From Candidatus Altimarinota bacterium (GTDB lineage Bacteria; Patescibacteriota; Gracilibacteria; JBDHUY01): a stretch of DNA of 25,635 nt. Under the pieces are notes generated by a model. The model was not told where the DNA came from, ran no database searches, and worked only from the letters and a program-made list of their open reading frames with translations. Location of the stretch: positions 1 to 25,635 of the forward strand of contig JBDHUY010000020.1 of assembly GCA_039809385.1 (NCBI GenBank). The letters are read 5' to 3'. Positions within the stretch are counted from its first letter, which is position 1. The number at the start of each line of letters is the position of its first letter. The translations under genes were made by a program, and so were the position numbers. Shown here one piece after another: positions 1 through 25,635 of the stretch.

Positions 1-285
1 GCAGAGTATATGAGGATAAAGATATGAGGAATGTTTGTATAGATGTATAGTATTTGTTTAGAGGTTAGTATTTCGAATTTAGAAATTTTCTCATCGGGGT
101 GTGGCGCAATTGGCTAGCGCGTCCCGACGTGAGTGTCGGGAAGGCTATGGGTTTAAGTCCTGATGCAGAGTATATGAGGATAAAGATATGAGGAATGTTT
201 GTATAGATGTATAGTATTTGTTTAGAGGTTAGTATTTCGAATTTAGAAATTTTCTCATCGGGGTGTGGCGCAATTGGCTAGCGCG
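1..285 (+). repeat. Tandem duplication with 164-bp period (1-121 identical to 165-285), covering the upstream region and 5' part of tRNA-Pro(GGG); may extend left of the window
   Basis: GCAGAGTATATGAGG... at position 1 recurs at 165; identity runs to ...GGCTAGCGCG (121/285). Confidence 0.95.
95..160 (+). pseudogene. Pseudo-tRNA-Pro(GGG) with anticodon arm replaced by hairpin TCCCGACGTGAGTGTCGGGA; truncated after the T-loop
   Basis: 95-121 equals tRNA 259-285; 122-141 is a foreign hairpin; 142-160 matches tRNA 303-321 with 2 mismatches; no 3' acceptor strand or CCA. Confidence 0.9.
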
Positions 286-335
286 CATGCATGGGGTGCA
301 TGAGGCTGTGGGTTCAAGTCCCGCCACCCCGACCA
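259..335 (+). tRNA. tRNA-Pro(GGG)
   Basis: 77 nt; acceptor CGGGGTG/CACCCCG, anticodon stem CATGC/GCATG with loop ATGGGGT, GGTTCAAGTCC T-arm, encoded CCA. Confidence 0.95.
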
Positions 336-424
336 GAGATTCATGGAAGAGATCATTTTGCTAACGTTCATATATTATAAAACCGTAATGACAAGGAGGG
401 GAAGATATAACAGCATGATAAAAA

Positions 425-434
425 TGGTATAACT
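425..434 (+). promoter_or_regulatory. Possible extended -10 promoter (TGGTATAACT) for tRNA-Pro(TGG)
   Basis: TGnTATAA-like motif ending about 9 nt upstream of the tRNA 5' end. Confidence 0.4.
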
Positions 435-442
435 AACATTAT

Positions 443-519
443 CGGGGACTGGCTCAATTGGCTAGAGTGCCCGCTTTGGGAGCGGGAGGTTCCGGGTTCG
501 AGTCCCGGGTCCCCGACCA
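443..519 (+). tRNA. tRNA-Pro(TGG)
   Basis: 77 nt; acceptor CGGGGAC/GTCCCCG, anticodon stem CCCGC/GCGGG with loop TTTGGGA, GGTTCGAGTCC, CCA. Confidence 0.96.
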
Positions 520-608
520 GTAGGTCAGTTTGAGAGGCGAGTTTGGAGTTTTTACCATTTGATCTTGAAGGAGGTGAATGACTCCAGAGCTTCTTTATAT
601 TAGGAACA

Positions 609-962
609 TTGAGCAACTTTCTTGGAAAATCACCCACGGACGGGGTGCGAATTGGCGTGGGGAATCTGGCTGGGAAAGGCGTTTTTGCCGCCCGGGATTT
701 TAAAAAAGGTGAAACGGTGATTCGGTATAAGCTTACACCTTTGACCGAGGACGAATTTCAAAAACTGCCCGAGTCGGAAAAAATGTTTACGCACATGCAT
801 TGGGGACAGCTGTATCTTTATTCCGAACCGGAACGGTACGTGAATGATTCCGCTACTCCCAATACTGCTCAGGATTTGATAAAACGATGCGATATTGCTT
901 CACGCGATATACTCGAAGGCGAAGAGATTACCTGTGATATGACCAAGGATGATATTGAATAG
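609..962 (+). CDS. SET domain-containing protein (putative lysine methyltransferase)
   Basis: GKGVFAARDFKKGE N-terminal SET motif, RYVNDSATPN (NHS-like box), IASRDILEGEEITCD; start codon uncertain. Confidence 0.8.
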   Translation: MSNFLGKSPTDGVRIGVGNLAGKGVFAARDFKKGETVIRYKLTPLTEDEFQKLPESEKMFTHMHWGQLYLYSEPERYVNDSATPNTAQDLIKRCDIASRDILEGEEITCDMTKDDIE

Positions 963-968
963 TCAACT

Positions 969-1436
969 ATGATAACTTGCAAAAATAACTTCGGTGAAAT
1001 CGTACACCAGCCTAAGGAGAAATTTGTTTTTCGTCCCAGTGTTTACGGATTTATCCGCAATGAAGACCGGATCTGTGTTTTTCGTACCAAGAGCAATGAC
1101 AAAATATGGTTTCCGGGCGGCGGTATAGAGGCAGGTGAAACCAGGCAGGAAGCACTTTTGAGAGAGATTGATGAAGAGACCGGTCTCAAAAATGTGAAAA
1201 TCGGCCGGCTCCTGGGCTCATTTGAGAACTTTTTTTATTATCAACCAAGGAACGAAGCCATGCAGGCTTTTCTGTTTTTTTATGAATGTTTTTCCTTGGA
1301 CACCGCATTAAAAACCAATTCGGAAATTCTGGATGACGAGGCCCAGGATCTGCTATGGTTGCCTATTCGCGATATTACAGCTGATGATATTGCGGATCTC
1401 CCAATAGAGTTGTTCGATCTATTGCAATCTCTGTGA
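969..1436 (+). CDS. NUDIX hydrolase
   Basis: Nudix box GGGIEAGETRQEALLREIDEETGL. Confidence 0.92.
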   Translation: MITCKNNFGEIVHQPKEKFVFRPSVYGFIRNEDRICVFRTKSNDKIWFPGGGIEAGETRQEALLREIDEETGLKNVKIGRLLGSFENFFYYQPRNEAMQAFLFFYECFSLDTALKTNSEILDDEAQDLLWLPIRDITADDIADLPIELFDLLQSL

Positions 1437-1493
1437 CAATCTTCAACAGTAACCGCATGTTTGAGTAGTATCATGCGTTCTATGTCAAAAGGA

Positions 1494-2096
1494 TTAGACG
1501 ATTTTTTGGGTATTATTGCTGATTTTTTCCAGTGTTAATTCCCTAACGCGGGTCACTAATGCGTTAATATTTTTTTGCTGTTTTTCACTGATTCTATAGG
1601 TTACATATTTTTGGCCCGTTTGTGATATCGTCGATTGAAATATGCCTAATGATCGGTTCAAAATATCTGTTAGCGATACGGTTTTTTCCCGTTCTTGTGC
1701 TTCCTGATAAAGAAGTTTCAGGACGTTTATATTGGCTAGTTTGTCAGAATAAATGACGTTCGGGAGTTCGAGTAACGGCTCGATGGCTGGGATTATCTGG
1801 ATGATTTGCGATTCTGTCATAACCGAAAAAAGAATGAGCATATCATTGGGAAACAGGTACAACCTCTGCAAAGCTGCCGGAATACCTTGTTGCTCATTTC
1901 TCCATCCTAAATCGTTGTATCCCCATAAAAGATTGATAAATGTATTGATCGTTAGCCATCTTTCACTTTGAAATAAAGGATATTCCAATAAATTTCGGAT
2001 AGCTGCCCCTTCGTTTGGTTCGGCAATAATAAATGCCGGTTTTTCTTCTGGGAATTCGTTATTTTCCGGAATAGTACTTTCTCCGACCTGATACAT
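1494..2096 (-). CDS. Hypothetical protein
   Basis: Part of the 1494-2327 ORF. The ATG at 2096 (MYQVGEST), just after the DUF2304 stop, avoids the overlap. No motif recognised. Confidence 0.6.
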   Translation of the reverse strand: MYQVGESTIPENNEFPEEKPAFIIAEPNEGAAIRNLLEYPLFQSERWLTINTFINLLWGYNDLGWRNEQQGIPAALQRLYLFPNDMLILFSVMTESQIIQIIPAIEPLLELPNVIYSDKLANINVLKLLYQEAQEREKTVSLTDILNRSLGIFQSTISQTGQKYVTYRISEKQQKNINALVTRVRELTLEKISNNTQKIV

Positions 2097-2107
2097 AGAA
2101 AGCGCAG

Positions 2108-2455
2108 TTACGGATTTTTTAGCTTCGACAACGCTATCGTACGTACCAGTTCGGTGAGTTTTCGCTCCTGATCTTCCATTTTCATTAAGAGCCGTAAATA
2201 GCCGTAAGTAAGTACTACCAAGGCAAAGAAAATCAGCGCGTTGATCCCGCTCTTGATCCCGGTTATTTTCGAAAGCCAGTCGATCGTCACGTCGGGGAAA
2301 AAAGCCACTCCAGAGATTAGGCACCATACTACGATCCAGGCAAATAATTCCCGTCCCGACAGATTTTTACGCAAATAACGTGATACTGCCCGGGTGATCA
2401 TGAGCAAGGCCAAAAGGGGGACAAGCAGCTGATAGAGCGAGAAAGAACCGATCAT
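2108..2455 (-). CDS. DUF2304-family small membrane protein
   Basis: Three hydrophobic segments and the C-terminal motif ERKLTELVRTIAL; adjacent to a DPM1-like GT2, the usual context for this family; start placed at ATG 2455. Confidence 0.85.
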   Translation of the reverse strand: MIGSFSLYQLLVPLLALLMITRAVSRYLRKNLSGRELFAWIVVWCLISGVAFFPDVTIDWLSKITGIKSGINALIFFALVVLTYGYLRLLMKMEDQERKLTELVRTIALSKLKNP

Positions 2456-2464
2456 GTGAATAAT

Positions 2465-2630
2465 GTCAAATATCAAAGTTCAAATGACAGATGAATACCA
2501 AATTTCAAAACTCAAAACGAAGTGATCAATAAAGGTGATAGAAATTTATGCAGTTTTGTTGTTCGGTTTTTTATTTTGGTCTTTGAACTTTGAGTTTATT
2601 TTGTCATTTGGTAGTAGGATTTTGGTTTTC
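2465..2630. repeat. Intergenic TCAAA-rich inverted repeat element
   Basis: TCAAAGTTCAAA 2473-2484 / TTTGAACTTTGA 2582-2593; CAAATGACA 2481-2489 / TGTCATTTG 2602-2610. Confidence 0.75.
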
Positions 2631-2697
2631 ATGCTGGTGGTACAGACCAAGTTTTCTCTCTCCATGATTCGTTCTTCGTGATTCTTGATTCTCATAG

Positions 2698-3372
2698 CTA
2701 TCGCATCAATGATCGTACGACGAGTTTAAAAATCGTCGAAAGGCCCGTAGCAAAGTTTTGGCCTTTACTCAAAGAATATGCGGTATAGCGAACGCTGATA
2801 GGAACTTCACATATCGTGAGTTTGCGGTATACCGCTTCCCGGATCATTTCGCTGCTGAATTCGTACCCGTCCGAGGTAATATTGATCGTTTCAAGAGCTC
2901 TTTCATTCAAGGCTTTCATGCCAGATTGCGTATCGGTCAGATAACGGCCGCTCAGCAAAAATACGACTCCGTTGGCAATGCGATTAAATATTGTTCGCAA
3001 CAACGGAATCCGGTTATTCCGTCCCAAGAATCGCGAACCGATCACCAAGTCGGCTTTTTTTTCCGCCAATGCGGCCAATAGTTTTTCGATATCTTGCGGC
3101 TCGTGCTGGCCGTCTCCGTCGAGTGTTACTGCCACGTCGGCTCCCAGTACTCTGGCCGCTTCCAGGCCGGTTTGTGTGGCCGCCCCGGCGCCGCGGTTAA
3201 TCATATGGCTTACTACGATTGCGCCGGCTTGTTGCGCAATCTCCGCACTGTTGTCACGGCTGCCGTCATCGACGACGATCAAATTTGGATAACCGGCGGT
3301 TTTACAGTCTTCTAAGATCTGCGCCAATCGTGTCGCTTCGTCCTTTACCGGAATAATCACAAAGACCTTCAT
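2698..3372 (-). CDS. Glycosyltransferase family 2, DPM1-like (polyprenol-phosphate sugar synthase)
   Basis: VIIPVKDE, VVDDGSRD, NRGAGAA, LDGDGQH, DTQSGMK motifs; start placed at ATG 3372. Confidence 0.92.
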   Translation of the reverse strand: MKVFVIIPVKDEATRLAQILEDCKTAGYPNLIVVDDGSRDNSAEIAQQAGAIVVSHMINRGAGAATQTGLEAARVLGADVAVTLDGDGQHEPQDIEKLLAALAEKKADLVIGSRFLGRNNRIPLLRTIFNRIANGVVFLLSGRYLTDTQSGMKALNERALETINITSDGYEFSSEMIREAVYRKLTICEVPISVRYTAYSLSKGQNFATGLSTIFKLVVRSLMR

Positions 3373-3450
3373 TTTGGATTGCGTCACAAGTATACTGTGC
3401 GGAGTATAGCGTATTCTGCTGTTCTATACGAGTCATCTTTCTTTAATTGT

Positions 3451-6156: not shown

Positions 6157-6159
6157 ATG

Positions 6160-6390
6160 TTGCTAAAAATCGCAAAAATTCGGTCAGAGTCATTTCTGTT
6201 TGATCAAGAATCGATTTCAAGGTGCCTGGTTGTATGTCTTTATTGTGTATGATACGATGACCCGTACTTTGGGTTTGTCAGGATGCCTAAAAAGATGATG
6301 GCTGCCGGATGACCTATCAATTACAAAACTTTTTTTTGCCAAAATACTCATTACTTGTCTGGGAGTCACTACCGGCAATCGCTTGTTCAT
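6160..6390 (-). pseudogene. hicA: HicA-family toxin, frameshifted
   Basis: From ATG 6390: MNKRLPVVTPRQVMSILAKKSFVIDRSSGSHHLFRHPDKPKVRVIV; after a 1-nt shift near 6245-6250: HNKDIQPGTLKSILDQTEMTLTEFLRFL; ATGA overlap with the hicB stop; 3' end approximate. Confidence 0.85.
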
Positions 6391-6650
6391 ACTGGTTCAA
6401 ATTGTGAATGTGCTTGCTTCCTTTTCAGGTGGTTTACCTTTGAATTAGCTGGAACAGGTTCGCCGTCCGCCTGCAGAGACTCAATGTATAAGCTCATCGC
6501 ATCCTGCGCCATCCATTCAGCTTCCTCCAATGTGTTGCCTTCTGTGACCAGACCCGGCAGAGCCGGACAAGTTACCGTGTAGCCGCCTTCGGGTTGGGGT
6601 TCGAATATGCAAGTGAAAGCGTATTCTCCAGTCGTAATGATCTTTTTCAT
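6387..6650 (-). CDS. hicB: HicB-family antitoxin
   Basis: EGGYTVTCPALPGLVTEGNTLEEA...AMSLYIESLQADGEPVP; start placed at ATG 6650. Confidence 0.92.
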   Translation of the reverse strand: MKKIITTGEYAFTCIFEPQPEGGYTVTCPALPGLVTEGNTLEEAEWMAQDAMSLYIESLQADGEPVPANSKVNHLKRKQAHSQFEPV

Positions 6651-6821
6651 AGATCTCAAAAAACAGAATAATGACACATTTATTCTAATCTTGCTTAATC
6701 CTTTCTCCAGTCAAAAAGAGCAAAATTCGTGAGAATTTATCTTTTGATAATCTTTGTTCTCGTAAAAATATGCAAAAAGGAATGGCCGTATCCTTAAATA
6801 CCCGAAGAAGCCAATATGCTT

Positions 6822-7934: not shown

Positions 7935-8018
7935 GAGACAAAAGAGTTACAATAGATAAAAACCTGATAAAAATCCTTTACATTTAGCCATTTAATGTGA
8001 TGGTCCGAATCAAAGTTA

Positions 8019-8047
8019 AGATTATGAGGAAATAGGTAAAATGTCAA
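8019..8047 (-). promoter_or_regulatory. Sigma70-type promoter TTGACA-N17-TAATCT for the 7934 gene
   Basis: Minus strand: TTGACA at 8047-8042, 17-nt spacer, TAATCT at 8024-8019. Confidence 0.6.
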
Positions 8048-8210
8048 TAGTTTCCTTTTTCCTTCGTTCTCCCCTTATATTGGGGGAAAAGAGTAATACC
8101 GGAAGCGTAAAAAAGCAACACTTTTTTTATAAATTGACCCCCTTGCCTCTTCGACCTCTCATGGGCTAGTATTTGATCCGGATTTTTTATTTATTACCTT
8201 GTATCGGGCA

Positions 8211-10417: not shown

Positions 10418-10567
10418 AGCCGTGTGATCAGGCAACTTCTTATGAGTTCTGAGTTCATAAGCTCAAAATTTAAAGTTCAAATGTCAAAATAATATCAAAA
10501 ATCAAATGGTAACCATTAAGAGTGCATATCACCATGCCAATATCTTATACCATTTACCCCCTTCCTC

Positions 10568-10894
10568 ATGTCCCGTCTCAGAGCAGGTTATTCGAAACTG
10601 GCTAACGGATTATTTATATTTGCCGATTTTTTTAATACCGCCTTCTTTCTGGTCACGCTTCTGATTTGGTTGATCCATGTTTTCTCTACGAATTTTGCAG
10701 AATTTCAACTTTCAACCTTATGGACGGCATTTAACGGGTTGTATAGCCGCTTTGAGTTTAAGGTGTCGTGCATCTTTTTGATTCTTTATAACGGGGTGAT
10801 TTCCTTCAAAACCCTGTTTGATCAGATATTTCTGTTTTTCATTAGCATTCATCGGTATAAGAACGTGACGGAAACGCTGCGTAAGAAAAAATAA
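10568..10894 (+). CDS. Hypothetical small membrane protein
   Basis: ATG start, same strand as the operon, hydrophobic segments, basic tail; no family recognised. Confidence 0.45.
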   Translation: MSRLRAGYSKLANGLFIFADFFNTAFFLVTLLIWLIHVFSTNFAEFQLSTLWTAFNGLYSRFEFKVSCIFLILYNGVISFKTLFDQIFLFFISIHRYKNVTETLRKKK

Positions 10895-10923
10895 TGGCTG
10901 CTCAATGGTGTAACAAGGTATGC

Positions 10924-11040
10924 TCAAAGTTCAAATGTTAAAGATTAAGATAGGTTATCCGAGCGTATAAATTTTGAACTTTGATATTGGGGTTTCTTTT
11001 GTCATTTGGTCCGCGGCGGGGATTGAACTTTGGTCTTTTT
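10924..11040. repeat. Second TCAAA-rich inverted repeat element; a related left arm lies at about 10462-10508
   Basis: TCAAAGTTCAAA 10924-10935 / TTTGAACTTTGA 10973-10984; TTTTGTCATTTGGT also occurs in the 2465-2630 element. Confidence 0.7.
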
Positions 11041-11121
11041 CGTGATTCTATTTCAGTCTTTTGGTTTGATTGCATAGACAAAAGACCGTATAGTTTGAAA
11101 CGATCGCATTTTTTCCCGTCT

Positions 11122-14796: not shown

Positions 14797-15010
14797 TGTG
14801 GATATCAACCCCTTATTTTGTTTCCAGAGATTCGCTCGTTACTCTGGCTTATTTATCCCGCCAAAACAGCTGTCCAAAGGAATAAGTATCAGGTAGTTTG
14901 GGAATCAGTAGTAGCTTCACTGAGCGCAATAAAAACGCTAAAAGTGTCAACGGTTCCTGGGCCACCGCCCTTGGCGGGACAAGCAAGCCGGGATGACCTT
15001 TCTTGGTTAT

Positions 15011-15616: not shown

Positions 15617-15631
15617 ATATGGGTACTGGAG

Positions 15632-17035: not shown

Positions 17036-17083
17036 AGTATGAAGAATAATGGTTAGCGTGTATGTTTTTTCGTCGATTCCTGG

Positions 17084-17977: not shown

Positions 17978-18025
17978 ATTTCTTTATGAAAAGTTCGTAA
18001 TACTTCCAGTTGTTCTGTATCTTCC

Positions 18026-18850: not shown

Positions 18851-19854
18851 TATATCACAAAATCTTGTTTCTGCTGCTTTGGATAGATTTGCCGGGATGG
18901 ATGAAAACTCCGGGTTGTCAGGGGAATTCCGGCCTGTTCCGCCAGGTTTTGTATCGCCGGGTCGGCTGCATGTGCCGAACGTACAAAGAAAAACTCACAG
19001 TCGTAGGTGTCGTCAATGAACTTGCGGTTTCGGTAAGCCAGATTGAGTTGTGTATCCGCAAAAGGTTTCCCGTCGGGTTCCGGCGTGAGCCAATCCGGAA
19101 TGGAGTATTTGTCGGTAACAATAAAGATAAAGTCAAAATCGGAAAACAAACTCCCCCGAAATCCGGGGGCTTGATATTGACCAAAAGATCCTTTAACCGA
19201 GGATCCGATCAGCAGTATCTTTTCGATCTCCGGGGCGGGTAAAAAGACATTTTCAATCTTTTGAATTGCTTTCGTTCTAAGCTCGTTCTGCAATTGTAAC
19301 GGGAAGATGGTTTTATGGGGGCGATTTTTCAGATGGTTTTCCATTGATCTGACAGATTTCACTTTTTGCAGAAAAACCAGATCCCTCTCTGTGATAAACG
19401 TTCCCTCGAAATTATTCGGCGTGTCGTGTTCTAATACAGCAATTGCTTGATCCAAGGTCATCCATTGTAATTGAAAGTTGTCCGCGAGTTCGCCTTCGGT
19501 AAACTCCGGGGTTCCTTTCGTGCCTACTCGACCGTAATAACAATAGGAAGTTTGTTTTACATCCCCATGAGAAAAGTTCTTTCCCGAGCGATATTCTATG
19601 ATTATTCCGACTTCGCCGTTTACTTCAATCTCGCATCCGGTTTCTTCGCGAACTTCCCGTCGTAATGCTTCTATTTTTCCCTCATCGGTTTCTATTCCGC
19701 CGCCTGGCAATTTGTGGTATTGATGTTTTGCTACAAACAGCAAAGGAATACATTCTTGATCGTCAAATACCACTGCGCGAGCAGCCTCTCTCAGGGTGAC
19801 GTTCGAATCTTCATGTGGGTATAGATCGTCCTTTATCTCCTTCAGCAGCTCCAT
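18850..19854 (-). CDS. NUDIX hydrolase fused to a nucleotidyltransferase-like (Pol beta superfamily) domain
   Basis: Nudix box GGGIETDEGKIEALRREVREETGC; C-terminal LLIGSSVKG...SDFDFIF (GS...DxD). Confidence 0.8.
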   Translation of the reverse strand: MELLKEIKDDLYPHEDSNVTLREAARAVVFDDQECIPLLFVAKHQYHKLPGGGIETDEGKIEALRREVREETGCEIEVNGEVGIIIEYRSGKNFSHGDVKQTSYCYYGRVGTKGTPEFTEGELADNFQLQWMTLDQAIAVLEHDTPNNFEGTFITERDLVFLQKVKSVRSMENHLKNRPHKTIFPLQLQNELRTKAIQKIENVFLPAPEIEKILLIGSSVKGSFGQYQAPGFRGSLFSDFDFIFIVTDKYSIPDWLTPEPDGKPFADTQLNLAYRNRKFIDDTYDCEFFFVRSAHAADPAIQNLAEQAGIPLTTRSFHPSRQIYPKQQKQDFVI

Positions 19855-19863
19855 ATTCGCACT

Positions 19864-20001
19864 TTACATTGTTGCAGTTGTCATACCTCTATTGTGTTCT
19901 TCCAATCTCTTGGCTGTATTCATGGTAGAACCAATATAATACTGGCCTATAATACTGGCCGTTTTTCTACTTTTCAAAATATAAACAAATCCTAGATCAA
20001 T
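19864..20001 (-). pseudogene. Truncated GIY-YIG nuclease remnant
   Basis: Reads IDLGFVYILKSRKTASIIGQYYIGSTMNTAKRLEEHNRGMTTATM*; homologous to the 24412 and 25434 genes; 13-bp tandem duplication at 19935-19960; no canonical start. Confidence 0.9.
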
Positions 20002-20021
20002 AGTCGAGCTATCTTTTCAGA

Positions 20022-20055
20022 AAGATGGTCGGCCTTTCAAACCACAACTCGAACC
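20022..20055 (-). other. att-like site mimicking the tRNA-Pro 3' end (GGTTC-N18-CCGACCA on the - strand)
   Basis: 26/34 ungapped identity with 24437-24470; shares ATGGTCGG with the tRNA and pseudo-tRNA 3' ends. Confidence 0.65.
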
Positions 20056-20180
20056 GAATGCCAAAAGGTTATGGGAAATTGAGGATAAAGCAATCGACCT
20101 GACGATTAAGGGGTTGAGAGTGTATTTAATTGGGAGAGATTCGGATGTGAATTTTTTGAAGAAACAAACAGAGGAAAATT

Positions 20181-21668
20181 TTAAAAAACTGATGGAATGA
20201 GATTAATATCTACCACATCATCATTCACGATTTTATCTAATACATCCTCAAGGTGCTCCTTCATTTTCTTCATTGATTTATCAAGTTCAACAATACCAAC
20301 CTCTTCATTCCACCTTTGATCTTCTTCTAGAAAGTTTTTTAAGTTCAAAGATTTTGGATAATTGGTAGGATTATGATACAGGGTAGCTATTTCTTTTTGT
20401 TTTGGTTCCGAAAAATTGGGAAATGGAATAATCCCCCAATATTTCATAGCCAAACTTCCACCATTACCACCAACTGCATACAAATCAACTAATCCAACGT
20501 TTCTTAAATAATCTAAGAAACATTTGATAAAAACAGATAGTGTTATGTTTCCTTTGGTATGGTTTATAGTAACACCATGAATATTTGTAATGGTCTTATC
20601 TCTATCTTTTAATATAACCATCGACCTGCCTTTTTCAAATCCTTCAGCCCCCAAAATAATATCTCCTGCTTTAAGAGTTTTTAGTTCTTTGGGATTTCCT
20701 AAATATTCCTGTGAAAATGCTGTTCCATACTGTGATAAATGTTTCGGTTTTATTACTGTATAAAAGTTGTCTTTGTAATCATTTGAATAAATACTTTTAC
20801 CTATGCAAGAAACTTGTAAATTTTGCCCCCTACTAATCTTAAATCCCATACTTTTTATATCTGAAAAACCTAGTTTATAATTTTTAATTATGTACTCATT
20901 ACTTAGAAAATACTTTGAATAAAATCCCGCATTTATACGGTTGAATTTCTGTAATTCTTTAATTTTTGGTAAAGAATATTCAAAAATTTTGTCTTTTTGA
21001 TTTTCTAAAAGCTCTTTTTCAATTTTTTTTAAAATTTGCTCGTGTTTTTTCCGAATCCCCTTTTCCTTATTGATAATTGCTTGAGTTAGAAGCTCCACAT
21101 AAGCAATTACATCATCTTTGTTAGCTTGATTCGGAAATGGAATTTTACAATCCAAAAATAAAGTTTTTGCGTGTCTTATAGTAGATCCTTTGGGAACCAT
21201 CAAATCCAGTTGATTCAGAAAATATTTGTGCTTCAAAAAAGCAAATAGATAATATTTATTTTGCGTTACTGGTAATTTATATAAAGCTCCTGAAAGTGTA
21301 TGATTTGGTAAATCTTGGTCTAAAATAACAACTTCACCAATATTTGAATCTTTAGAAATTAAAATATCACCTTGTTTCAAATCAAAATTAGTAAAAACTT
21401 GTGGACGAATAGGAATAGCCGTCTCTTCTGTTAGAAATGGTAAAAAAGATTCTTTTTGTAATGCCTTTGATCTAATAAAATATTTAGGTGATTTATAGAT
21501 ATAATTTACAGAACCGACTTCGTTTCCGTTATCGGAAAATTTAAATTTCCTACTCAACAAATTGTTCACAAGCAATTTATTTTGATTTGGCACGCTTAAG
21601 GTTGTTAGCTGACTTGGAGCTAAATTGTACTTATTGCTGACGATGTCTTTGTAGGTAGCAACAGGCAT
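20181..21668 (-). CDS. Restriction-modification specificity (HsdS-like) subunit
   Basis: Two TRD-like halves (LKQGDILISKDSNIG...KGSTIRH...IPFP; LKAGDIILGAEG...IPFPN) with helical spacers; starts 1 nt after the MTase stop. Confidence 0.8.
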   Translation of the reverse strand: MPVATYKDIVSNKYNLAPSQLTTLSVPNQNKLLVNNLLSRKFKFSDNGNEVGSVNYIYKSPKYFIRSKALQKESFLPFLTEETAIPIRPQVFTNFDLKQGDILISKDSNIGEVVILDQDLPNHTLSGALYKLPVTQNKYYLFAFLKHKYFLNQLDLMVPKGSTIRHAKTLFLDCKIPFPNQANKDDVIAYVELLTQAIINKEKGIRKKHEQILKKIEKELLENQKDKIFEYSLPKIKELQKFNRINAGFYSKYFLSNEYIIKNYKLGFSDIKSMGFKISRGQNLQVSCIGKSIYSNDYKDNFYTVIKPKHLSQYGTAFSQEYLGNPKELKTLKAGDIILGAEGFEKGRSMVILKDRDKTITNIHGVTINHTKGNITLSVFIKCFLDYLRNVGLVDLYAVGGNGGSLAMKYWGIIPFPNFSEPKQKEIATLYHNPTNYPKSLNLKNFLEEDQRWNEEVGIVELDKSMKKMKEHLEDVLDKIVNDDVVDINLIPSVF

Positions 21669-21669
21669 A

Positions 21670-23847
21670 TTATTTCTCTTTTATAAATAGATCTTGTAGT
21701 GCTTTTTCTTGACCTAAGCACCATTTTTTGAAATGAGAAATTGTTTCAGTGAACTCTTCGTCTATCAAAGGAGTTCCCTCTTCGTTTTGCTCTATTTCAA
21801 AAGTCTGTTCATTGATTTTGTAGATTGGATTGAAGTATTTTATCCTCTTTGAGGTTCTCACTTCATACCCTACTTTTTTTATGTCTTTTACAAAAACATC
21901 ATAATTTGATTCTTTCAATTTTTGTAATTCACTTTCTTTTGGCTTATATGCCACGATTAGAGTTGTATTTACTCCAGTATCGGCAAACACATTCGGTGGC
22001 AAATCAAACAAAGCCACTATTCTCATTTTTTCCATAAGCCATGCCCTAGCCTTCTTCCATCTATCAATTGAAGCGATAGAATTTGAAACAATAATTCCCA
22101 TTCTTCCCCCTTCTCCTAAAATACGATATGAGTTTTCCAAAAATACTATTCCTAAATCTATCCACTTTCCACTTCTTGCAATATCCCAAAGTTCGTACAT
22201 TTCAGCTTGTTCTTTTTCTGACTGTGTTTTCGGTTCCCACTTTCTATCTTCTCCGAATGGTGGATTTGTCAGAACTACATCAAACTTTTTTAACTTGGTT
22301 TGATCTTTCCAATTATCCCAATTCCCAGCTTTGTGTAAGTTTGGTTGCAATTCTACGAGATTATTTCTATCATCGAATTTCCAAGTGATAGATCCTTTGT
22401 CTGGTTTATACTTTAAAACAGCATTTCCATCTCCATTTAAAAGCATATTCAATTGTGCAAGCATTATCATTTGCTCATCATTATCAACTCCATAGATGTT
22501 GTTGTCATCTAGCCGACTATTAGAGTTAACATATGATACAGAAAGAAAATCCGCAATTCCGCTTGTTGGGTCAATGATTTTTTCAGTGCTTCTCGGGTTT
22601 ACAATTTGTACAAGAAAATCAATTAATGGAATAGGGGTAATAAATTGCCCTTTGTCACTTTTAGAAAATTCGTTAGCAAATTTATAGAAAACAATTTGGT
22701 ACAAATCCGTTTTATGTGATAAAACGAAACTGTAATCCTGAAACTGCTCTACAACCTCACTAATAATTTGAATATGTACAGGATTGTCCCAGCTAATGGT
22801 TTCTGTATCTTTCCTTTTCAATATATAGTGATATTTTGCTGAAGCTTCATTGTATAATTGTCTTAGTCTTTCAATAAATTGTTGTATTTCTTCATCTCCC
22901 AAATTTGTGTGGATTTTTTCTTCTTTTGTTATGTAAAACAGTAAATTAAGCTTTTTAGTTTCGGGATCACTTTTATAAAAATCTAAAAACTTTTTAGGAT
23001 CTGAATTTAAGCTTCTTTTTTCGTCAAAAATTTTAAGGGCCATGATTTGAATAAGAATTTCATAACCTCTTTGGTTTTTCATTCCTATTTTATCCATTAC
23101 CCTCAAGATATTTGAAATACCATCCGTTAATTGTTTACTGTAAATACCTGTAACAATATCAAGATCATCAATGGTTCTTTGTGATCTATCTATGGTAACT
23201 TGAGTGATTTTTTTCTGTAATTGTTCAAAAGAAGGAATCTTGTAGTAAGCATCCGTAAGATGTAATGATAAATCTTTGGTAGTGCTTTTTTCACCTTTCA
23301 AATTAAAAGATTCATCGAGTCTTAAATAGTTATTTTGTTTTCTTTGAAATAAATAAAGCCTTTCCGTGTCATACAAAACTCCTAAACAAAAATCATTTTC
23401 AGATTCTTTAATAGCTGGTTTAAGTTGTTGGTTGTAAACAGTTTCAATATCTTTTGAATCTTCTTTTTTAAATTCAATAACTCCAAGCAAATGACTCCTC
23501 AGCCAGTCTAAAGATTCTTGATCTTTGTTCTGATGATATTTTTTGTACCAATCAAACCAATTTGGATCATCAAAAATTGCTCCATCCAGTTTTATAGGGG
23601 CAGAGTTTTTATTCCCCTTTGGAAAATACACCTCGCACCCCAAATAATCTTTTTGATACAAGCCAGAATGCACTAAGGCGTAGAAAAACTGCCACTTGTA
23701 GTATTCTTCATTCGTCTCACCTTTCTTATTTTTGATGGCATAATTTTCAGATAACTTCTGATTTACAGGAATAAATGCTGTAAATTCTTTGGCAGAGGAA
23801 TACTTACGATCAAAATCCTGTTTGGCTTGTAAGAAGGTTCCTAGCAT
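21670..23847 (-). CDS. Fused restriction endonuclease / N6-adenine methyltransferase (Type IIB/IIG-like, BcgI-alpha-like architecture)
   Basis: GQFITP, motif I IIDPTSGIADFL, motif IV LTNPPFG; N-terminal E..LD..IEFK PD-(D/E)XK-like motif. Confidence 0.85.
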   Translation of the reverse strand: MLGTFLQAKQDFDRKYSSAKEFTAFIPVNQKLSENYAIKNKKGETNEEYYKWQFFYALVHSGLYQKDYLGCEVYFPKGNKNSAPIKLDGAIFDDPNWFDWYKKYHQNKDQESLDWLRSHLLGVIEFKKEDSKDIETVYNQQLKPAIKESENDFCLGVLYDTERLYLFQRKQNNYLRLDESFNLKGEKSTTKDLSLHLTDAYYKIPSFEQLQKKITQVTIDRSQRTIDDLDIVTGIYSKQLTDGISNILRVMDKIGMKNQRGYEILIQIMALKIFDEKRSLNSDPKKFLDFYKSDPETKKLNLLFYITKEEKIHTNLGDEEIQQFIERLRQLYNEASAKYHYILKRKDTETISWDNPVHIQIISEVVEQFQDYSFVLSHKTDLYQIVFYKFANEFSKSDKGQFITPIPLIDFLVQIVNPRSTEKIIDPTSGIADFLSVSYVNSNSRLDDNNIYGVDNDEQMIMLAQLNMLLNGDGNAVLKYKPDKGSITWKFDDRNNLVELQPNLHKAGNWDNWKDQTKLKKFDVVLTNPPFGEDRKWEPKTQSEKEQAEMYELWDIARSGKWIDLGIVFLENSYRILGEGGRMGIIVSNSIASIDRWKKARAWLMEKMRIVALFDLPPNVFADTGVNTTLIVAYKPKESELQKLKESNYDVFVKDIKKVGYEVRTSKRIKYFNPIYKINEQTFEIEQNEEGTPLIDEEFTETISHFKKWCLGQEKALQDLFIKEK

Positions 23848-24075
23848 GCTTTTTAGTTAAAAACTACACACAGTTTACTTGAAGAAAATAAAAAGCCAAT
23901 AACATTTTATCTCGAACCACCTGCCAAAAGCTGAAATACTGCTTCGCAAAGCCATATTATAAAAATACGCTGGACTATTTTTCCAAAAGGTTCATAGTTC
24001 AAAACTCGCGAATAACCGCCCAAAAAAGCCTTATTCAACACATATTCCTAAATAAGACTTTCTGCTGTAATTAAA

Positions 24076-24143
24076 TGGTCGGGGATGCGGGACTTGAACC
24101 CGCGACCTTCCCGACGGGAGCGTCGGGACGCGCTAGCCAACTG
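24076..24143 (-). pseudogene. Pseudo-tRNA-Pro(CGG): D-loop to CCA retained, anticodon arm replaced by hairpin TCCCGACGCTCCCGTCGGGA
   Basis: Identical to tRNA 25452-25528 on both sides of the 20-nt hairpin (24109-24128); lacks the 5' acceptor strand. Confidence 0.93.
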
Positions 24144-24145
24144 GC

Positions 24146-24412
24146 TTAATTCATTTTAATTACTTGATCTCGAATGATCTTCTCCAGATAATCACGTCTT
24201 TTCATTTTCTTGAGGAGCTGCTCTATTTTACGCGCTTGAGGGATAGATGGGTATTGTTGTTGAAATACAATTGTCCAAGGTCCTTTATTACGGGTTGAAA
24301 TGGTTGTTCCGGAATTATGCTCGTGTAATCTCTTTTGAGTATCCATGGTAGAACCAATATAATATTGACCACTTTTTCTACTTTGCAAAATGTACACAAA
24401 CCCTTGAACCAT
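24146..24412 (-). CDS. Small stand-alone GIY-YIG nuclease (UPF0213/YhbQ-like), copy 2
   Basis: GFVYIL...YYIGST, KRLHEHN, ARKIEQLLKKMK; 88 aa. Confidence 0.92.
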   Translation of the reverse strand: MVQGFVYILQSRKSGQYYIGSTMDTQKRLHEHNSGTTISTRNKGPWTIVFQQQYPSIPQARKIEQLLKKMKRRDYLEKIIRDQVIKMN

Positions 24413-24436
24413 AAAGGCGAGATCTTATTTCTTGAG

Positions 24437-24470
24437 AAGATGGTCGGCCTGATGAACCACAGAGTGAACC
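24437..24470 (-). other. att-like site mimicking the tRNA-Pro 3' end (GGTTC-N18-CCGACCA on the - strand)
   Basis: Paralog of 20022-20055; its CCA ends 28 nt upstream of GIY-YIG copy 2. Confidence 0.65.
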
Positions 24471-24580
24471 TGCAACTACATGCTGTACGCCGCTTATTGA
24501 AGAGGCATTGTACGAATTAAAAGCATATTTCGACCAGTCAAATTCTACGGGATTTGAGCAATTTTACAAGATGGTTAAAA

Positions 24581-25063
24581 TTACAACTTCTTAATCATCC
24601 CTATCATTCTATCTTGATAATCAGATTTTTTGTAAAAATTATGAGCACTTATGTTTGGAACAAATACTTCAACCCAAGCAGTATCACATCGTTTGAGTCG
24701 AAAATATTCTTCTATTTTATTCATTAAAGCAGTGCCAATTTTCTTTCCTCGATGCTCACTACTTACAACAAGCTCAATAATGTTGCCAACTTTGGATTCA
24801 ATATGATCAACTTTATCTACATCAGTTTGTTTTTCAATTATCCCAGCCACCATTCCAACAGCAGCTTCATCAATTTTCGCAATATAGATCATTCCTTCCC
24901 TACTCTGTATTTTTTTCAGTAAATCATCTACATAGACTTTTCCATATGTAGATGGTCTTTTCAATCGTTTTAGCGGATCAATTTCTACTAAAAAGTCTTG
25001 TAATTGTTCCATTAAACTAACAAGACTTTCTTTATCACTACTATATTCAACTATTTTTACCAT
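24581..25063 (-). CDS. GNAT-family N-acetyltransferase
   Basis: IIELVVSSEHRGKKIGTALM (acetyl-CoA motif A), NISAHNFYKK; start placed at ATG 25063. Confidence 0.92.
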   Translation of the reverse strand: MVKIVEYSSDKESLVSLMEQLQDFLVEIDPLKRLKRPSTYGKVYVDDLLKKIQSREGMIYIAKIDEAAVGMVAGIIEKQTDVDKVDHIESKVGNIIELVVSSEHRGKKIGTALMNKIEEYFRLKRCDTAWVEVFVPNISAHNFYKKSDYQDRMIGMIKKL

Positions 25064-25097
25064 AGAATTAGATTGAATTGTTTGTCTTGACAATCAA

Positions 25098-25165
25098 TGG
25101 TCGGGGATGCGGGACTTGAACCCGCGACCTTCCCGACGGGAGCGTCGGGACGCGCTAGCCAACTG
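25098..25165 (-). pseudogene. Pseudo-tRNA-Pro(CGG) with hairpin-replaced anticodon arm (identical to 24076-24143)
   Basis: Hairpin at 25131-25150; flanks match the intact tRNA. Confidence 0.93.
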
Positions 25166-25167
25166 GC

Positions 25168-25434
25168 TTAATTCATTTTAATTACTTGATCTCGAATGAT
25201 CTTCTCCAGATAATCACGTCTTTTCATTTTCTTGAGGAGCTGCTCTATTTTACGCGCTTGAGGGATAGATGGGTATTGTTGTTGAAATACAATTGTCCAA
25301 GGTCCTTTATTACGGGTTGAAATGGTTGTTCCGGAATTATGCTCGTGTAATCTCTTTGTAGTATCAATAGTAGAACCAATGTAATATTGGCCTGTTTTTT
25401 CACTTCTGAGGATATAAATAAAACCTGGTCTCAT
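25168..25434 (-). CDS. Small stand-alone GIY-YIG nuclease, copy 1
   Basis: GFIYIL...YYIGST, KRLHEHN; starts 17 nt after the tRNA CCA. Confidence 0.92.
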   Translation of the reverse strand: MRPGFIYILRSEKTGQYYIGSTIDTTKRLHEHNSGTTISTRNKGPWTIVFQQQYPSIPQARKIEQLLKKMKRRDYLEKIIRDQVIKMN

Positions 25435-25451
25435 AACTGTACTTCATACAA

Positions 25452-25528
25452 TGGTCGGGGATGCGGGACTTGAACCCGCGACCTCGTCGTCCCGAACGAC
25501 GCGCGCTAGCCAACTGCGCTAATCCCCG
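25452..25528 (-). tRNA. tRNA-Pro(CGG)
   Basis: Reverse complement is 77 nt; acceptor CGGGGAT/ATCCCCG, anticodon stem CGTCG/CGACG with loop TTCGGGA, GGTTCAAGTCC, CCA. Confidence 0.96.
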
Positions 25529-25609
25529 TTAATGGCTCACTATTTGATAGTGATAGTATGGTATTATTTTCGAGATAGTAACGTAACGATCGGTCTACCT
25601 TCGCCCAAT

Positions 25610-25635
25610 GACTTGAACCCGCGACCTCCCCGACG
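25610..25635 (-). pseudogene. Partial pseudo-tRNA-Pro(CGG) copy, cut by the window edge and 3'-truncated after the T-loop
   Basis: GACTTGAACCCGCGACCT matches the tRNA, then CCCCGACG follows, matching the hairpin arm (TCCCGACG, 1 mismatch) rather than the native anticodon arm. Confidence 0.75.

What the first reader, a model, noticed from the sequence alone, without database searches (positions are those of the whole stretch)
95..25635. Family of tRNA-Pro mimics whose anticodon arm is swapped for a shared TCCCGAC-N6-GTCGGGA hairpin
Seen: copies at 95-160, 24076-24143, 25098-25165 and (partial) 25610-25635 keep the D-side and variable/T-side sequence of the neighbouring intact tRNA. In the three complete copies exactly the 17-nt anticodon stem-loop is replaced by a 20-nt hairpin. 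The left copy derives from Pro(GGG) and carries TCCCGAC-GTGAGT-GTCGGGA; the right copies derive from Pro(CGG) and carry TCCCGAC-GCTCCC-GTCGGGA. The arms and length are the same, the core varies, the junctions are identical, and the two parent tRNAs lie about 24 kb apart. Inference: random decay would not produce this, so a dedicated mechanism probably writes the hairpin into duplicated tRNA genes. The adjacent GIY-YIG protein is the candidate enzyme, by analogy to REP/RAYT pairs. The RNAs could alternatively act as anticodon-less decoys or nuclease-bound RNAs. I know of no named system with this arrangement.
Basis: partly seen in the sequence, partly recalled or inferred. Interest (0 to 1): 0.92.

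Follow-up and report, generated by a model that had tools for sequence, protein, structure and literature searches.

The report
Hairpin-capped dead tRNA copies beside GIY-YIG genes
Spare, broken copies of tRNA genes in this bacterium have had their anticodon arm swapped for one shared GC-rich hairpin, a pattern that recurs next to small GIY-YIG nuclease genes in many small-genome bacteria and in Bacteroidota and looks like an undescribed kind of selfish DNA module.

Summary
In the whole genome, the hairpin TCCCGAC-N6-GTCGGGR occurs 13 times. All 13 sit exactly where the anticodon arm should be in defective local duplicates of tRNA-Pro(GGG), Pro(CGG), Leu(GAG) and Ile(GAU). Most copies lie in tandem arrays of 147-164 nt units. 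Contigs from four independent studies carry the same junctions.

The 88-aa neighbour is a UPF0213/Slx1-like GIY-YIG nuclease. Homologues occur in 118 of 201 genomes of the same class. Of 51 copies examined, 39 lie within 200 nt of a tRNA, always on the same strand. At least 32 lie next to a partial tRNA copy that abuts a GC-rich hairpin.

In three loci (one 16S rRNA, two probable RNase P RNA) the hairpin arms bracket the nuclease ORF. The identical arms replace anticodon arms in Bacteroidota and Ignavibacteria.

Best reading, at about 0.5: these are DNA-level products of a selfish nuclease-plus-palindrome module that colonises structured-RNA genes, amplified by break-induced recombination. They are not working tRNA mimics. 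How the hairpin is installed is unproven. RNA decoys and an independent REP-like element remain live rivals. Eight searches of the held paper library found no description.

The parts
1..94 (+). Spacer of the 164-nt tandem unit. It is identical to 165-258, the upstream region of tRNA-Pro(GGG). The array continues leftwards on contig C26.
   Evidence: (D3: 1-121 = 165-285, 100%)
95..160 (+). Defective copy of tRNA-Pro(GGG). Positions 1-27 are intact, hairpin 122-141 replaces the anticodon arm, the T arm is mutated and the 3' acceptor strand is lost.
   Evidence: not called by ARAGORN or Rfam
259..335 (+). Intact tRNA-Pro(GGG), the parent of the left copies.
19858..20055 (-). Degenerate third nuclease module. 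It is an N-terminal GIY-YIG fragment (63% identity over 41 aa, with a stop), preceded by a tRNA 3'-end-like remnant at 20022-20055.
   Evidence: (D2, D7, D10)
20181..23847 (-). Cargo between nuclease modules: a DNA methyltransferase (21670-23847) and a specificity subunit (20181-21668), both weakly like the methylation-associated defence system (MADS).
   Evidence: patchy cover in other runs
24076..24143 (-). Defective copy of tRNA-Pro(CGG). It runs from the D loop to the CCA end, hairpin 24109-24128 replaces the anticodon arm, and the 5' acceptor strand is replaced by the end of the nuclease ORF.
   Evidence: independent contigs X1, X5, X10
24146..24412 (-). GIY-YIG nuclease gene 2 (88 aa, P0002).
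24437..24470 (-). Foreign tRNA 3'-end-like remnant (...GGCCGACCA) just upstream of nuclease gene 2. It is homologous to 20022-20055.
   Evidence: (D10)
24581..25093 (-). GNAT acetyltransferase gene lying between the two nuclease modules (cargo).
25098..25165 (-). Second defective copy of tRNA-Pro(CGG), with hairpin 25131-25150. It is identical to the copy at 24076-24143.
   Evidence: (D1); contig X6 record 29
25168..25434 (-). GIY-YIG nuclease gene 1 (88 aa, P0001). It starts 17 nt after the CCA end of tRNA-Pro(CGG), and its stop codon abuts the defective copy.
25452..25528 (-). Intact tRNA-Pro(CGG), the parent of the right copies.
25529..25635 (-). First unit of a 147-nt tandem array of hairpin-bearing 5' copies of tRNA-Pro(CGG), upstream of the true gene. 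The partial hairpin copy is at 25610-25635, and the array continues on contig C25 (5 copies).
   Evidence: joint 25635->25515 with 26 letters between, in runs X1, X5, X6

Best explanation
**What the copies are**
The hairpin-bearing tRNA look-alikes are non-functional local duplicates of tRNA genes. They belong to a selfish DNA module with two parts.
- A small gene for a single-domain UPF0213/Slx1-like GIY-YIG nuclease. It nests in the transcription unit of a tRNA gene, or more rarely inside 16S rRNA or RNase P RNA.
- A GC-rich perfect palindrome with a conserved TCCC...GGGA base. It takes the place of a native helix tip of the invaded RNA-gene copy. Here that is the anticodon arm. Elsewhere it is the D loop, the T loop, 16S helix 6 or RNase P helix P3.

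**Shown**
- The anatomy of the copies.
- The co-occurrence of nuclease genes and hairpins.
- Arms bracketing the ORF in three loci.
- Hairpin variants that are specific to a lineage and shared across several tRNA loci of one genome.
- Flanks kept identical to the neighbouring working tRNA.

**Inferred**
- The nuclease, which lacks a DNA-binding domain, recognises DNA structure (an extruded hairpin or branched tDNA), not a long sequence.
- Its breaks are repaired by homologous recombination with neighbouring copies.
- That repair yields tandem amplification of tRNA-plus-flank units and gene conversion that keeps the flanks identical to the working tRNA.
- The palindrome marks and disables every surplus copy. 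One intact tRNA per array is kept by selection.

The step that first installs the palindrome in a new tRNA copy is unknown.
For: **This genome**
- 13 of 13 hairpins in the genome replace the anticodon arm of a tRNA copy beside its parent.
- The arrays and junctions recur in contigs of runs from 4 studies.

**The protein**
- It hits Pfam GIY-YIG at E 2.9e-13.
- The catalytic Y, Y, R, H, E and K positions are conserved in 19 homologues.
- The nearest solved relatives are UPF0213 proteins 1zg2 (E 2.6e-18) and 1ywl, then SLX1. I-TevI scores only E 1.7e-3.

**Association across the class**
- Homologues occur in 118 of 201 class genomes.
- 39 of 51 copies lie within 200 nt of a tRNA, 39 of 39 on the same strand.
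- 39 of 51 have a partial tRNA duplicate nearby.
- 32 of 51 have a perfect hairpin abutting that duplicate.
- 43 of 128 hairpins fall in an edge zone that is about 1.3% of the bases.

**Arms bracketing the ORF**
- Inverted repeats of 13-14 nt bracket the ORF in L021 (16S; Rfam 190 bits), L031 and L164 (RNase P position). None of 200 shuffles reached that length.
- The L021 and L164 arms are alike although their host genes differ.

**Lineage specificity**
- Genus g17 carries TCCCGAT-N4-ATCGGGA at 13 of 15 sites in copies of Val, three Pro and Ile tRNAs.
- This genome carries TCCCGAC-N6 at Pro, Leu and Ile.
- A narrow hairpin pattern is found in 12 of 201 genomes. All 11 besides this one also have the nuclease, against 117 of 200 overall.
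- Nuclease clades track tRNA type (29 changes against a shuffled mean of 43.2; 0 of 200 shuffles as low) and arm class (13 against 19.1; 0 of 500).

**Other phyla and control**
- The same arms replace anticodon arms in Bacteroidota and Ignavibacteria, at 11 of 15 sites in five genomes.
- As a control, 0 of 80 viral-contig hits of the same hairpin are in such a context.

**Precedent**
- The GIY-YIG nuclease SegB drives recombination-dependent tandem amplification of a tRNA-plus-segB unit (PMC13096335, passages read).
Against: - No assay or expression data exist. Nothing shows that the nuclease binds or cuts the hairpin.
- Most hairpin loci lack a nuclease gene. In this genome only the Pro(CGG) locus has one among four parent loci. 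In genus g17 only 4 of 13 tRNA-context sites lie within 700 nt of one.
- At tRNA loci the ORF is never inside the hairpin. It lies beside a closed hairpin.
- The array spacers are not detectable nuclease remnants.
- The genome has 151 other GC-rich hairpins with stems of 7 bp or more.
- It also has a roughly 37-copy palindrome family, TCCGCCGCGGCGGA, that is mostly intergenic, and a borderline Y1-transposase match. A different mobiliser is therefore possible.
- The co-occurrence statistics are confounded by kinship: 9 of the 11 pattern-positive genomes are from one family.
- The tree is poorly resolved, with 87 columns.
- Precise replacement in the class II tRNA-Leu has no homology-based explanation.
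Confidence: 0.5

Rival explanations
1. RNA-level function. The copies are transcribed with the tRNA operon. The hairpin-capped, anticodon-less tRNA-like RNAs then act as decoys, antitoxin-like inhibitors, guides or processing and stability elements for the nuclease or its mRNA.
For: - The tandem units carry the tRNA's upstream region, so each could have a promoter.
- The ORF is always co-oriented with the tRNA. It often starts just after the G-rich T-stem strand and stops inside the next tRNA's D arm.
- Three Bacteroidota copies are complete cloverleaves that ARAGORN calls tRNA-???.
- The loop motif GGNANC mostly keeps one orientation relative to the tRNA.
- Prokaryotic Slx1-like domains are fused to tRNA methyltransferase-like enzymes (PMC1564403, section 11 read).
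- The hairpin is about twice as stable as the native arm: -11.6 and -13 against -6.3 and -7 kcal/mol.
Against: - All 13 copies in this genome lack a paired acceptor stem, and several have damaged T arms.
- The hairpin occurs in both orientations: C25:651 against C23:18178, and the two 3' copies.
- There is no G-U over A-C excess in the sense strand (3 against 2).
- GIY-YIG enzymes are known as DNases (recalled).
Confidence: 0.12
2. Independent palindromic repeat. The hairpin is a REP/MITE-like mini-element, moved by some other enzyme or by replication slippage. It accumulates in dispensable tRNA duplicates. The GIY-YIG genes merely share a liking for tRNA loci.
For: - The genome is rich in other lineage-specific GC palindromes, including a roughly 37-copy family that is mostly intergenic but also sits in 5-6 tRNA remnants.
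- There is one borderline Y1_Tnp match (22.7 bits).
- Most hairpin copies have no nuclease gene nearby.
- The hairpin also lies in the 23S-5S spacer of a Tenacibaculum.
Against: - This family is never extragenic here (13 of 13).
- It replaces a helix exactly, without adding to it.
- The arms bracket the nuclease ORF in three loci.
- Arm class follows the nuclease clade.
- All 11 pattern-positive genomes carry the nuclease.
Confidence: 0.2
3. Scars of integrase-type island insertions. Serial integration of islands at tRNA-Pro(CGG) duplicated the tRNA 3' part, and the copies later decayed.
For: 3'-part copies lie downstream of inserted segments that carry cargo genes: GNAT, a methyltransferase and a specificity subunit.
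Against: - No integrase or recombinase domain appears in the 20 ORFs scanned, plus the two GIY-YIG genes.
- The left, Leu and Ile arrays duplicate 5' parts together with promoter or trailer sequence.
- A shared hairpin in four tRNA families is not decay.
Confidence: 0.03
4. Assembly artefact: chimeric joins of tRNA reads.
For: The copies lie at contig ends and break the assembly.
Against: Contigs assembled independently from runs of four studies cover the hairpin junctions without differences. Three runs show the 147-nt back-joint.
Confidence: 0.01

Closest known systems
Phage T4/T6 SegB, a free-standing GIY-YIG homing endonuclease in the tRNA gene cluster
   Same: - A GIY-YIG nuclease gene nested among tRNA genes.
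- Nuclease-dependent, recombination-dependent tandem amplification of a tRNA-plus-nuclease unit.
- Microhomology between the 3' end of the ORF and the 5' end of the tRNA.

Source: PMC13096335, passages read. For PMC2330249 only the search listing and the start of the abstract were seen.
   Different: - SegB is a phage protein with an added DNA-binding part (recalled).
- Its amplified tRNAs stay intact and there is no hairpin cassette.
- The protein here is an 88-aa UPF0213/Slx1-like domain in a cellular genome.
REP elements with RAYT transposases, and MITE/IS pairs
   Same: - A short GC-rich palindrome in many copies.
- A sequence variant specific to the lineage.
- A candidate cognate nuclease gene, sometimes flanked by the palindrome arms.
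   Different: - RAYTs are HUH/Y1 enzymes (recalled). The candidate here is GIY-YIG.
- REPs are extragenic. This cassette replaces a helix inside copies of RNA genes.
Insertion sequences with GIY-YIG ORFs in rRNA genes of CPR bacteria
   Same: Locus L021 is such a case: a GIY-YIG ORF unlike any intron, at a stem-loop of 16S rRNA. The paper states that these ORFs lie in insertions unlike group I or II introns, and that most insertions sit at the top or base of stem-loops (PMC11270868, passages read).
   Different: - The paper's main text has no occurrence of 'tRNA' or 'hairpin'. Its supplements were not seen.
- The window's copies are in tRNA duplicates, with the ORF beside the hairpin and not inside it.
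tRNA-gene attachment-site duplications left by integrating islands
   Same: Partial tRNA 3' copies lie downstream of inserted cargo.
   Different: - No integrase is present.
- 5'-side duplicates occur with promoter sequence.
- A constant hairpin replaces the anticodon arm.
GC-rich palindromes of fungal mitochondria (Neurospora PstI palindromes flanking tRNA genes; yeast GC clusters). Recalled, not checked here.
   Same: Mobile-looking GC palindromes in AT-richer genomes, often near tRNA genes and near endonuclease ORFs.
   Different: They are organellar, and they flank tRNA arms without replacing them.
Type III toxin-antitoxin systems (ToxIN)
   Same: Tandem short repeats lie next to a small nuclease gene.
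   Different: ToxN is an RNase of another fold, with 36-nt repeats and a terminator between repeats and gene (recalled). None of this is seen here.

Membership tests
GIY-YIG nuclease superfamily, UPF0213 / prokaryotic Slx1-like branch | GIY-YIG catalytic domain detected by profile | tested here: met
   PF01541 at E 2.9e-13 and 50.4 bits, against a cut-off of 22.6.
GIY-YIG nuclease superfamily, UPF0213 / prokaryotic Slx1-like branch | Conserved catalytic residues (two Tyr, Arg, His/Asn, Glu) | tested here: met
   In 19 sequences, Y18, G20, H32, E64 and K68 are invariant, and Y7 and R28 are at least 90% conserved.
GIY-YIG nuclease superfamily, UPF0213 / prokaryotic Slx1-like branch | Closer to UPF0213/SLX1 than to intron homing endonucleases | tested here: met
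   1zg2 at E 2.6e-18, 1ywl at 1.2e-14, SLX1 at 1e-8 to 1e-6, I-TevI at 1.7e-3.
Free-standing homing endonuclease (Seg-like) | Nuclease gene inserted beside or within its target gene, with patchy presence among relatives | tested here: met
   Present in 118 of 201 genomes. 39 of 51 copies lie at tRNAs, and clades track tRNA type.
Free-standing homing endonuclease (Seg-like) | Separate DNA-binding domain giving a long asymmetric target | tested here: not met
   The protein is 88 aa and consists of the catalytic domain only.
Free-standing homing endonuclease (Seg-like) | Cleaves the allele that lacks the gene | not testable with these tools
   This needs enzyme assays.
REP/RAYT | HUH/Y1 transposase as the cognate enzyme | tested here: not met
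   The neighbouring gene is GIY-YIG. The genome has only one borderline Y1_Tnp match, elsewhere (C2:140099, 22.7 bits).
REP/RAYT | Extragenic dispersed palindromes | tested here: not met
   13 of 13 copies lie inside tRNA-gene copies.
True tRNA (including a tRNA with an enlarged anticodon loop) | Cloverleaf with paired acceptor stem and a 7-nt anticodon loop, detected by ARAGORN or Rfam | tested here: not met
   No copy is called in the window or the genome. The acceptor strands are missing.
Integrase-mediated tRNA att duplication | Tyrosine or serine recombinase gene in the inserted segment | tested here: not met
   No such domain in the ORFs scanned.
rRNA intervening or insertion sequence with a GIY-YIG ORF | ORF-bearing insert at a helix tip of an rRNA gene | tested here: not met
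   This holds for relative L021 but not for the window's copies, which lie in tRNA duplicates.
Type III toxin-antitoxin | ToxN/AbiQ-fold RNase with short repeat RNA upstream | tested here: not met
   The protein is GIY-YIG. The repeats are 147-164 nt tRNA copies.

The most novel reading that the evidence does not exclude
This is a previously unrecognised class of mobile cassette that replaces helices. A structure-specific Slx1-like GIY-YIG nuclease, acting in trans, cuts at the base of hairpins in DNA of structured-RNA genes (tRNA arms, 16S helix 6, RNase P helix P3). It installs its own cognate GC palindrome in their place, a hairpin-for-hairpin swap. The system is spread across small-genome (probably CPR) bacteria and Bacteroidota. 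It creates arrays of disabled tRNA copies, and nuclease modules may carry defence islands with them.
Probability: 0.25. Interest if true: 0.9.

Novelty: new variant of a known kind. Interest (0 to 1): 0.78.

Why it matters
If the reading holds, several unexplained observations get one explanation:
- why small UPF0213/Slx1-like nuclease genes are multi-copy and sit beside tRNA genes in many uncultured bacteria and in Bacteroidota;
- why tRNA loci there break assemblies;
- where the non-intron GIY-YIG insertions in rRNA of CPR bacteria come from.

It would add a structure-guided way of moving DNA to the known ways: sequence-guided homing, transposases and RAYTs. It would also give a function to a protein family that has solved structures but no known role.

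On the practical side, the copies are a source of false or missed tRNA calls and of contig breaks in metagenome-assembled genomes.

Tried and rejected
**Ideas tested and not supported**
- Array spacers as decayed nuclease ORFs. Local alignment against shuffles gave Pro(GGG) p 0.43, Leu 0.57 and Ile 0.26-0.76. Only the Pro(CGG) spacer was marginal, at p 0.003-0.013.
- Strand asymmetry of wobble pairs, to separate an RNA-level from a DNA-level role. The result was 3 G-U against 2 A-C, which is inconclusive. The automatic stems also ran into the flanks.
- Rfam scans of five other hairpin contexts in this genome found only ordinary tRNAs.

**Searches that found nothing useful**
With the single protein it found nothing.
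- Phage carriers. There is no phage homologue of the nuclease. Among 80 viral-contig hits of the hairpin, none is in a tRNA copy and 3 merely lie near tRNA-Trp.
- Expression. No RNA holder is listed for this stretch.

**Readings considered and dropped**
- A true tRNA with an 8-nt, four-base anticodon loop. The acceptor stems are absent and the loop lacks the usual U33/purine-37 pattern (read).
- The hairpin as the recognition site of the adjacent methyltransferase/specificity pair (GAC-N6-GTC looks like a bipartite site). This was not tested. It is dropped as the main reading because the same cassette occurs at other loci and in other genomes without those genes.
- Integrase att scars and assembly chimeras. 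See the rival explanations.

**Tool problems**
- One script call returned no answer. The annotation was then done with search_protein_families instead.

Full report
**1. The observation**

The window is a whole contig (C20) of a 1.87-Mb, 26-contig genome.
- ARAGORN finds three tRNA genes: Pro(GGG) at 259-335, Pro(UGG) at 443-519 and Pro(CGG) at 25452-25528 on the minus strand. Rfam finds the same three and nothing else tRNA-like.
- The pattern TCCCGAC-N6-GTCGGGA occurs three times, at 122-141, 24109-24128 and 25131-25150. None of 100 shuffles gave a match.
- Alignment A2 shows that each copy differs from its parent tRNA by replacement of the 17-nt anticodon arm with the 20-nt hairpin.
- The adjoining blocks are 100% identical to the parent: positions 1-27 for the left copy and 45-77 for the two right copies.
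- As RNA the hairpin folds at -11.6 to -13 kcal/mol, against -6.3 and -7 for the native arms.

- The left copy has lost its 3' acceptor strand.
- In the right copies the 5' acceptor strand is replaced by the last codons of the neighbouring ORF.

**2. The whole genome**

With one mismatch allowed, the hairpin occurs at 13 sites, and the reversed control gives 0. All 13 replace the anticodon arm of a tRNA-like copy lying beside the tRNA it copies.

| Parent tRNA | Copies | Arrangement |
|---|---|---|
| Pro(GGG) | 3 | 164-nt tandem units that include the tRNA's upstream region; they run from contig C26 into the start of the window |
| Pro(CGG) | 7 | the two 3' copies in the window, plus five 5' copies in mostly 147-nt units that run from the window's end into contig C25 |
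| Leu(GAG) | 2 | 159-nt units downstream of the gene, on contigs C18 and C17 |
| Ile(GAU) | 1 | in the rRNA operon, on contig C23 |

- Loop sequences differ between arrays, and the cassette occurs in both orientations. C25:651 is the reverse complement of C23:18178.
- None of the 13 copies keeps a paired acceptor stem (read).
- A related hairpin with a 7-nt loop at C5:19467 is not in a recognisable RNA gene.

**3. Not an assembly artefact**

DNA runs from activated sludge and wastewater, from several studies, hold the stretch.
- Contigs from four studies cover the hairpin junctions without differences: X1 record 7, X5 record 22 and X10 record 10 for the copy at 24109, and X6 record 29 for the copy at 25131.
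- Three runs show the back-joint 25635 to 25515 with 26 letters between, which is the 147-nt repeat.
- No RNA run was listed.

**4. The neighbouring gene**

- ORFs 25434-25168 and 24412-24146 encode 88-aa proteins that are 91% identical. A third, truncated copy lies at 19992-19858.
- They match Pfam GIY-YIG at E 2.9e-13.
- The catalytic residues are conserved across 19 homologues.
- A profile of these homologues hits the UPF0213 proteins 1zg2 and 1ywl best (E 2.6e-18 and 1.2e-14), then the eukaryotic SLX1 structure-specific endonucleases. It hits I-TevI only at E 1.7e-3.
- The protein is thus the prokaryotic Slx1-like single-domain nuclease, without the DNA-binding extension of classical homing endonucleases.
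- Two more diverged copies in this genome lie just after tRNA-Met (C25) and after tRNA-Tyr (C4). The Met copy is followed by a tRNA-Met remnant carrying another hairpin, TCCGCCGCGGCGGA.

**5. The same module elsewhere in the class**

The relatives have genomes of 0.6-2.0 Mb, and some read TGA as sense (in-frame TGA in hits of family f12). I infer, without proof, that this is a CPR/Patescibacteria class.
- The exact hairpin of this genome was not found in 40 relatives. There was one unrelated match.
- Homologues of the nuclease occur in 118 of 201 genomes sampled.
- In 49 fetched loci with 51 nuclease copies:
  - 39 copies lie within 200 nt of a tRNA, and 39 of 39 are on its strand;
  - 39 have a partial duplicate of that tRNA within 400 nt;
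  - 32 have a perfect hairpin of 6 bp or more abutting the edge of that duplicate.
- 43 of the 128 hairpins in these loci fall in the edge zone, which is about 1.3% of the bases.
- Reading the loci shows two arrangements:
  - [tRNA 1-26][hairpin][44-53][ORF][intact tRNA];
  - [intact tRNA][ORF][D arm][hairpin][44-76]. The window has this second one.
- The ORF often starts a few bases after the G-rich T-stem strand and stops inside the D arm of the following tRNA.
- The hairpins differ between lineages by paired changes, for example TCCCGAC/GTCGGGA, TCCCGAT/ATCGGGA, TCCCGCC/GGCGGGA and GTCCGATG/CATCGGAC, with loops of 3-6 nt. Most share a TCCC...GGGA base.
- In the nearest nuclease relatives, the D loop and T loop of the dead copies are also replaced by GC hairpins.

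**6. Arms around the ORF**

In three loci the ORF lies between inverted repeats of 13-14 nt. None of 200 shuffles reached that length.
- L021 lies inside a 16S rRNA gene (Rfam 190 bits), at the position of helix 6 as read against conserved flanks.
- L031 and L164 lie immediately before the GGAAAGTCCG motif. L031 has a weak RNase P 3'-end match (E 0.078). I read this as helix P3 of RNase P RNA, which is an inference.
- The arms of L021 and L164 are alike (TCCCRCCCATTCW) although their host genes differ. They therefore belong to the insert, not to the host helix.
- A published survey of rRNA insertions in CPR bacteria reports GIY-YIG ORFs in insertions unlike any intron, and reports insertions at stem-loop tips or bases. 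Its main text does not contain the word tRNA (PMC11270868, passages read; supplements not seen).

**7. Lineage specificity and trans action**

- In five genomes of genus g17, which hold the closest nuclease relatives, TCCCGAT-N4-ATCGGGA occurs at 15 distinct sites. Thirteen of these replace the anticodon arm in copies of Val(CAC), Pro(GGG), Pro(CGG), Pro(UGG) and Ile(GAU). Only four lie within 700 nt of a nuclease gene.
- The same tRNA loci are therefore hit in two families. Each genome uses one hairpin variant across all its loci.
- This fits either ongoing exchange between loci or a trans-acting factor. It does not fit independent decay.
- A narrow pattern (GCGTCCCG-N4-10-CGGGRAGG) matches 12 of 201 genomes, with 1 control hit. 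All 11 besides this one have the nuclease, against a background of 117 of 200. Nine of the 11 are from one family.
- On a weakly resolved tree of 58 nuclease sequences:
  - tRNA type needs 29 changes against a shuffled mean of 43.2 (0 of 200 shuffles as low);
  - arm class needs 13 against 19.1 (0 of 500, one row per locus).
- The tRNA-Met copy of this genome groups with Pro(UGG)-associated nucleases that share TCCGCC arms, so the arm follows the nuclease here and not the tRNA. These tests are confounded by kinship.

**8. Other phyla**

  - Most matches are chance matches in high-GC coding DNA.
  - Of 15 loci with GC of 0.50 or less, six are anticodon-arm replacements in Ignavibacteriaceae and Bacteroidota. 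One of these has a nuclease gene directly downstream.
  - Three more lie in the 23S-5S spacer of a Tenacibaculum.
- In five of those genomes, 11 of 15 distinct hairpin sites are in tRNA-like copies.
- Bacteroidota nucleases nest inside the diversity of the class.
- As a control at similar GC, 0 of 80 viral-contig matches are in such a context.

**9. What it most likely is**

The simplest account that covers all of this is a selfish module of a structure-specific nuclease gene and a cognate palindrome that lives in structured-RNA genes.
- The surplus tRNA copies are its by-products and carriers.
- An experimental precedent exists for the amplification step. The GIY-YIG nuclease SegB drives recombination-dependent tandem amplification of a tRNA-plus-segB unit in phage T6 (PMC13096335, passages read).
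- A 2006 survey noted fusions of prokaryotic Slx1-like domains with tRNA-methyltransferase-like enzymes (PMC1564403, section 11 read).
- That the nuclease recognises the hairpin, and how the hairpin first enters a new tRNA copy, remain inference. This applies especially to the class II tRNA-Leu, where no flanking homology to other copies exists.

**10. What speaks against it**

- Most hairpin copies have no nuclease gene beside them.
- At tRNA loci the ORF is never inside the hairpin.
- The array spacers are not nuclease remnants.
- The genome has 151 GC-rich hairpins with stems of 7 bp or more, in several families.
- It has a second palindrome, TCCGCCGCGGCGGA, with about 37 mostly intergenic copies. 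One variant lies in the window near 11009.
- It has a borderline Y1-transposase match.

An independent REP-like element therefore remains a serious rival. The complete cloverleaf copies in Bacteroidota keep an RNA-level role open.

**11. Literature**

- Eight searches of the held library found no description of anticodon-arm replacement by a shared hairpin, or of UPF0213 genes nested at tRNA genes.
- The library lacks most subscription journals, and supplements were closed.

**12. Verdict**

The feature is real, reproducible and widespread, and appears to be undescribed. I file it as a new variant of known kinds: free-standing GIY-YIG selfish genes at tRNA loci, and palindromic repeat elements. 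There is a one-in-four chance that it is a new, structure-guided way of moving DNA.

Noticed in passing
window 19858-25451: The segment between the truncated nuclease copy and tRNA-Pro(CGG) is built of three repeats of [tRNA 3'-end remnant][nuclease gene][hairpin copy]. Cargo lies between them: a GNAT gene, and a methyltransferase plus specificity subunit weakly like the MADS defence system. Contigs from other studies cover it only in patches, and one variant replaces 136 nt with 148 others at 22114-22251. The island therefore looks strain-variable.
   Followed up: partly
window 2460-2612, 10457-11025; about 37 sites in the genome: A second palindromic repeat family: TCCGCCGCGGCGGA (variant TCCGCGGCGGG near 11009), flanked by AT-rich inverted motifs such as tttgtcatttgg / caaatgacaaa. 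It is mostly intergenic, sometimes terminator-like, and sits in 5-6 tRNA remnants (Met, His, Arg, Met, Gln).
   Followed up: partly
loci L017, L018, L023, L024, L030, L035, L037, L040 (relatives): The nuclease ORF runs into the following tRNA gene and uses a TAG or TAA in its D loop as the stop codon. RNase P cleavage of the tRNA would therefore cut off the ORF's stop codon.
   Followed up: no
genomes G029, G144, G151, G179 (family f12): Nuclease matches there carry 2-4 in-frame TGA codons, which suggests that this family of relatives reads TGA as sense.
   Followed up: no
L065, L067, L121 (Tenacibaculum ovolyticum contig ends): The same 20-nt hairpin lies in the 23S-5S rRNA spacer, at three contig ends.
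   Followed up: partly
G000:C2:140099-140314: The genome's only match to the Y1 transposase family (RAYT/IS200-like). It is borderline at 22.7 bits and could be a mobiliser of the palindromic repeats.
   Followed up: no
G000:C6:102827-103137: Three copies of CGGAGGAAGCTCCTCCG spaced 147 nt apart, inside an Asn/Gly-rich repetitive stretch that looks like coding sequence. They appear unrelated to the tRNA arrays, despite the equal period.
   Followed up: no
window 24059-24358 vs 25081-25380: The 3' two-thirds of the two nuclease genes and the hairpin copies are 96% identical. The 5' thirds and the upstream tRNA remnants differ. This mosaic suggests recent gene conversion between the two modules.
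   Followed up: no
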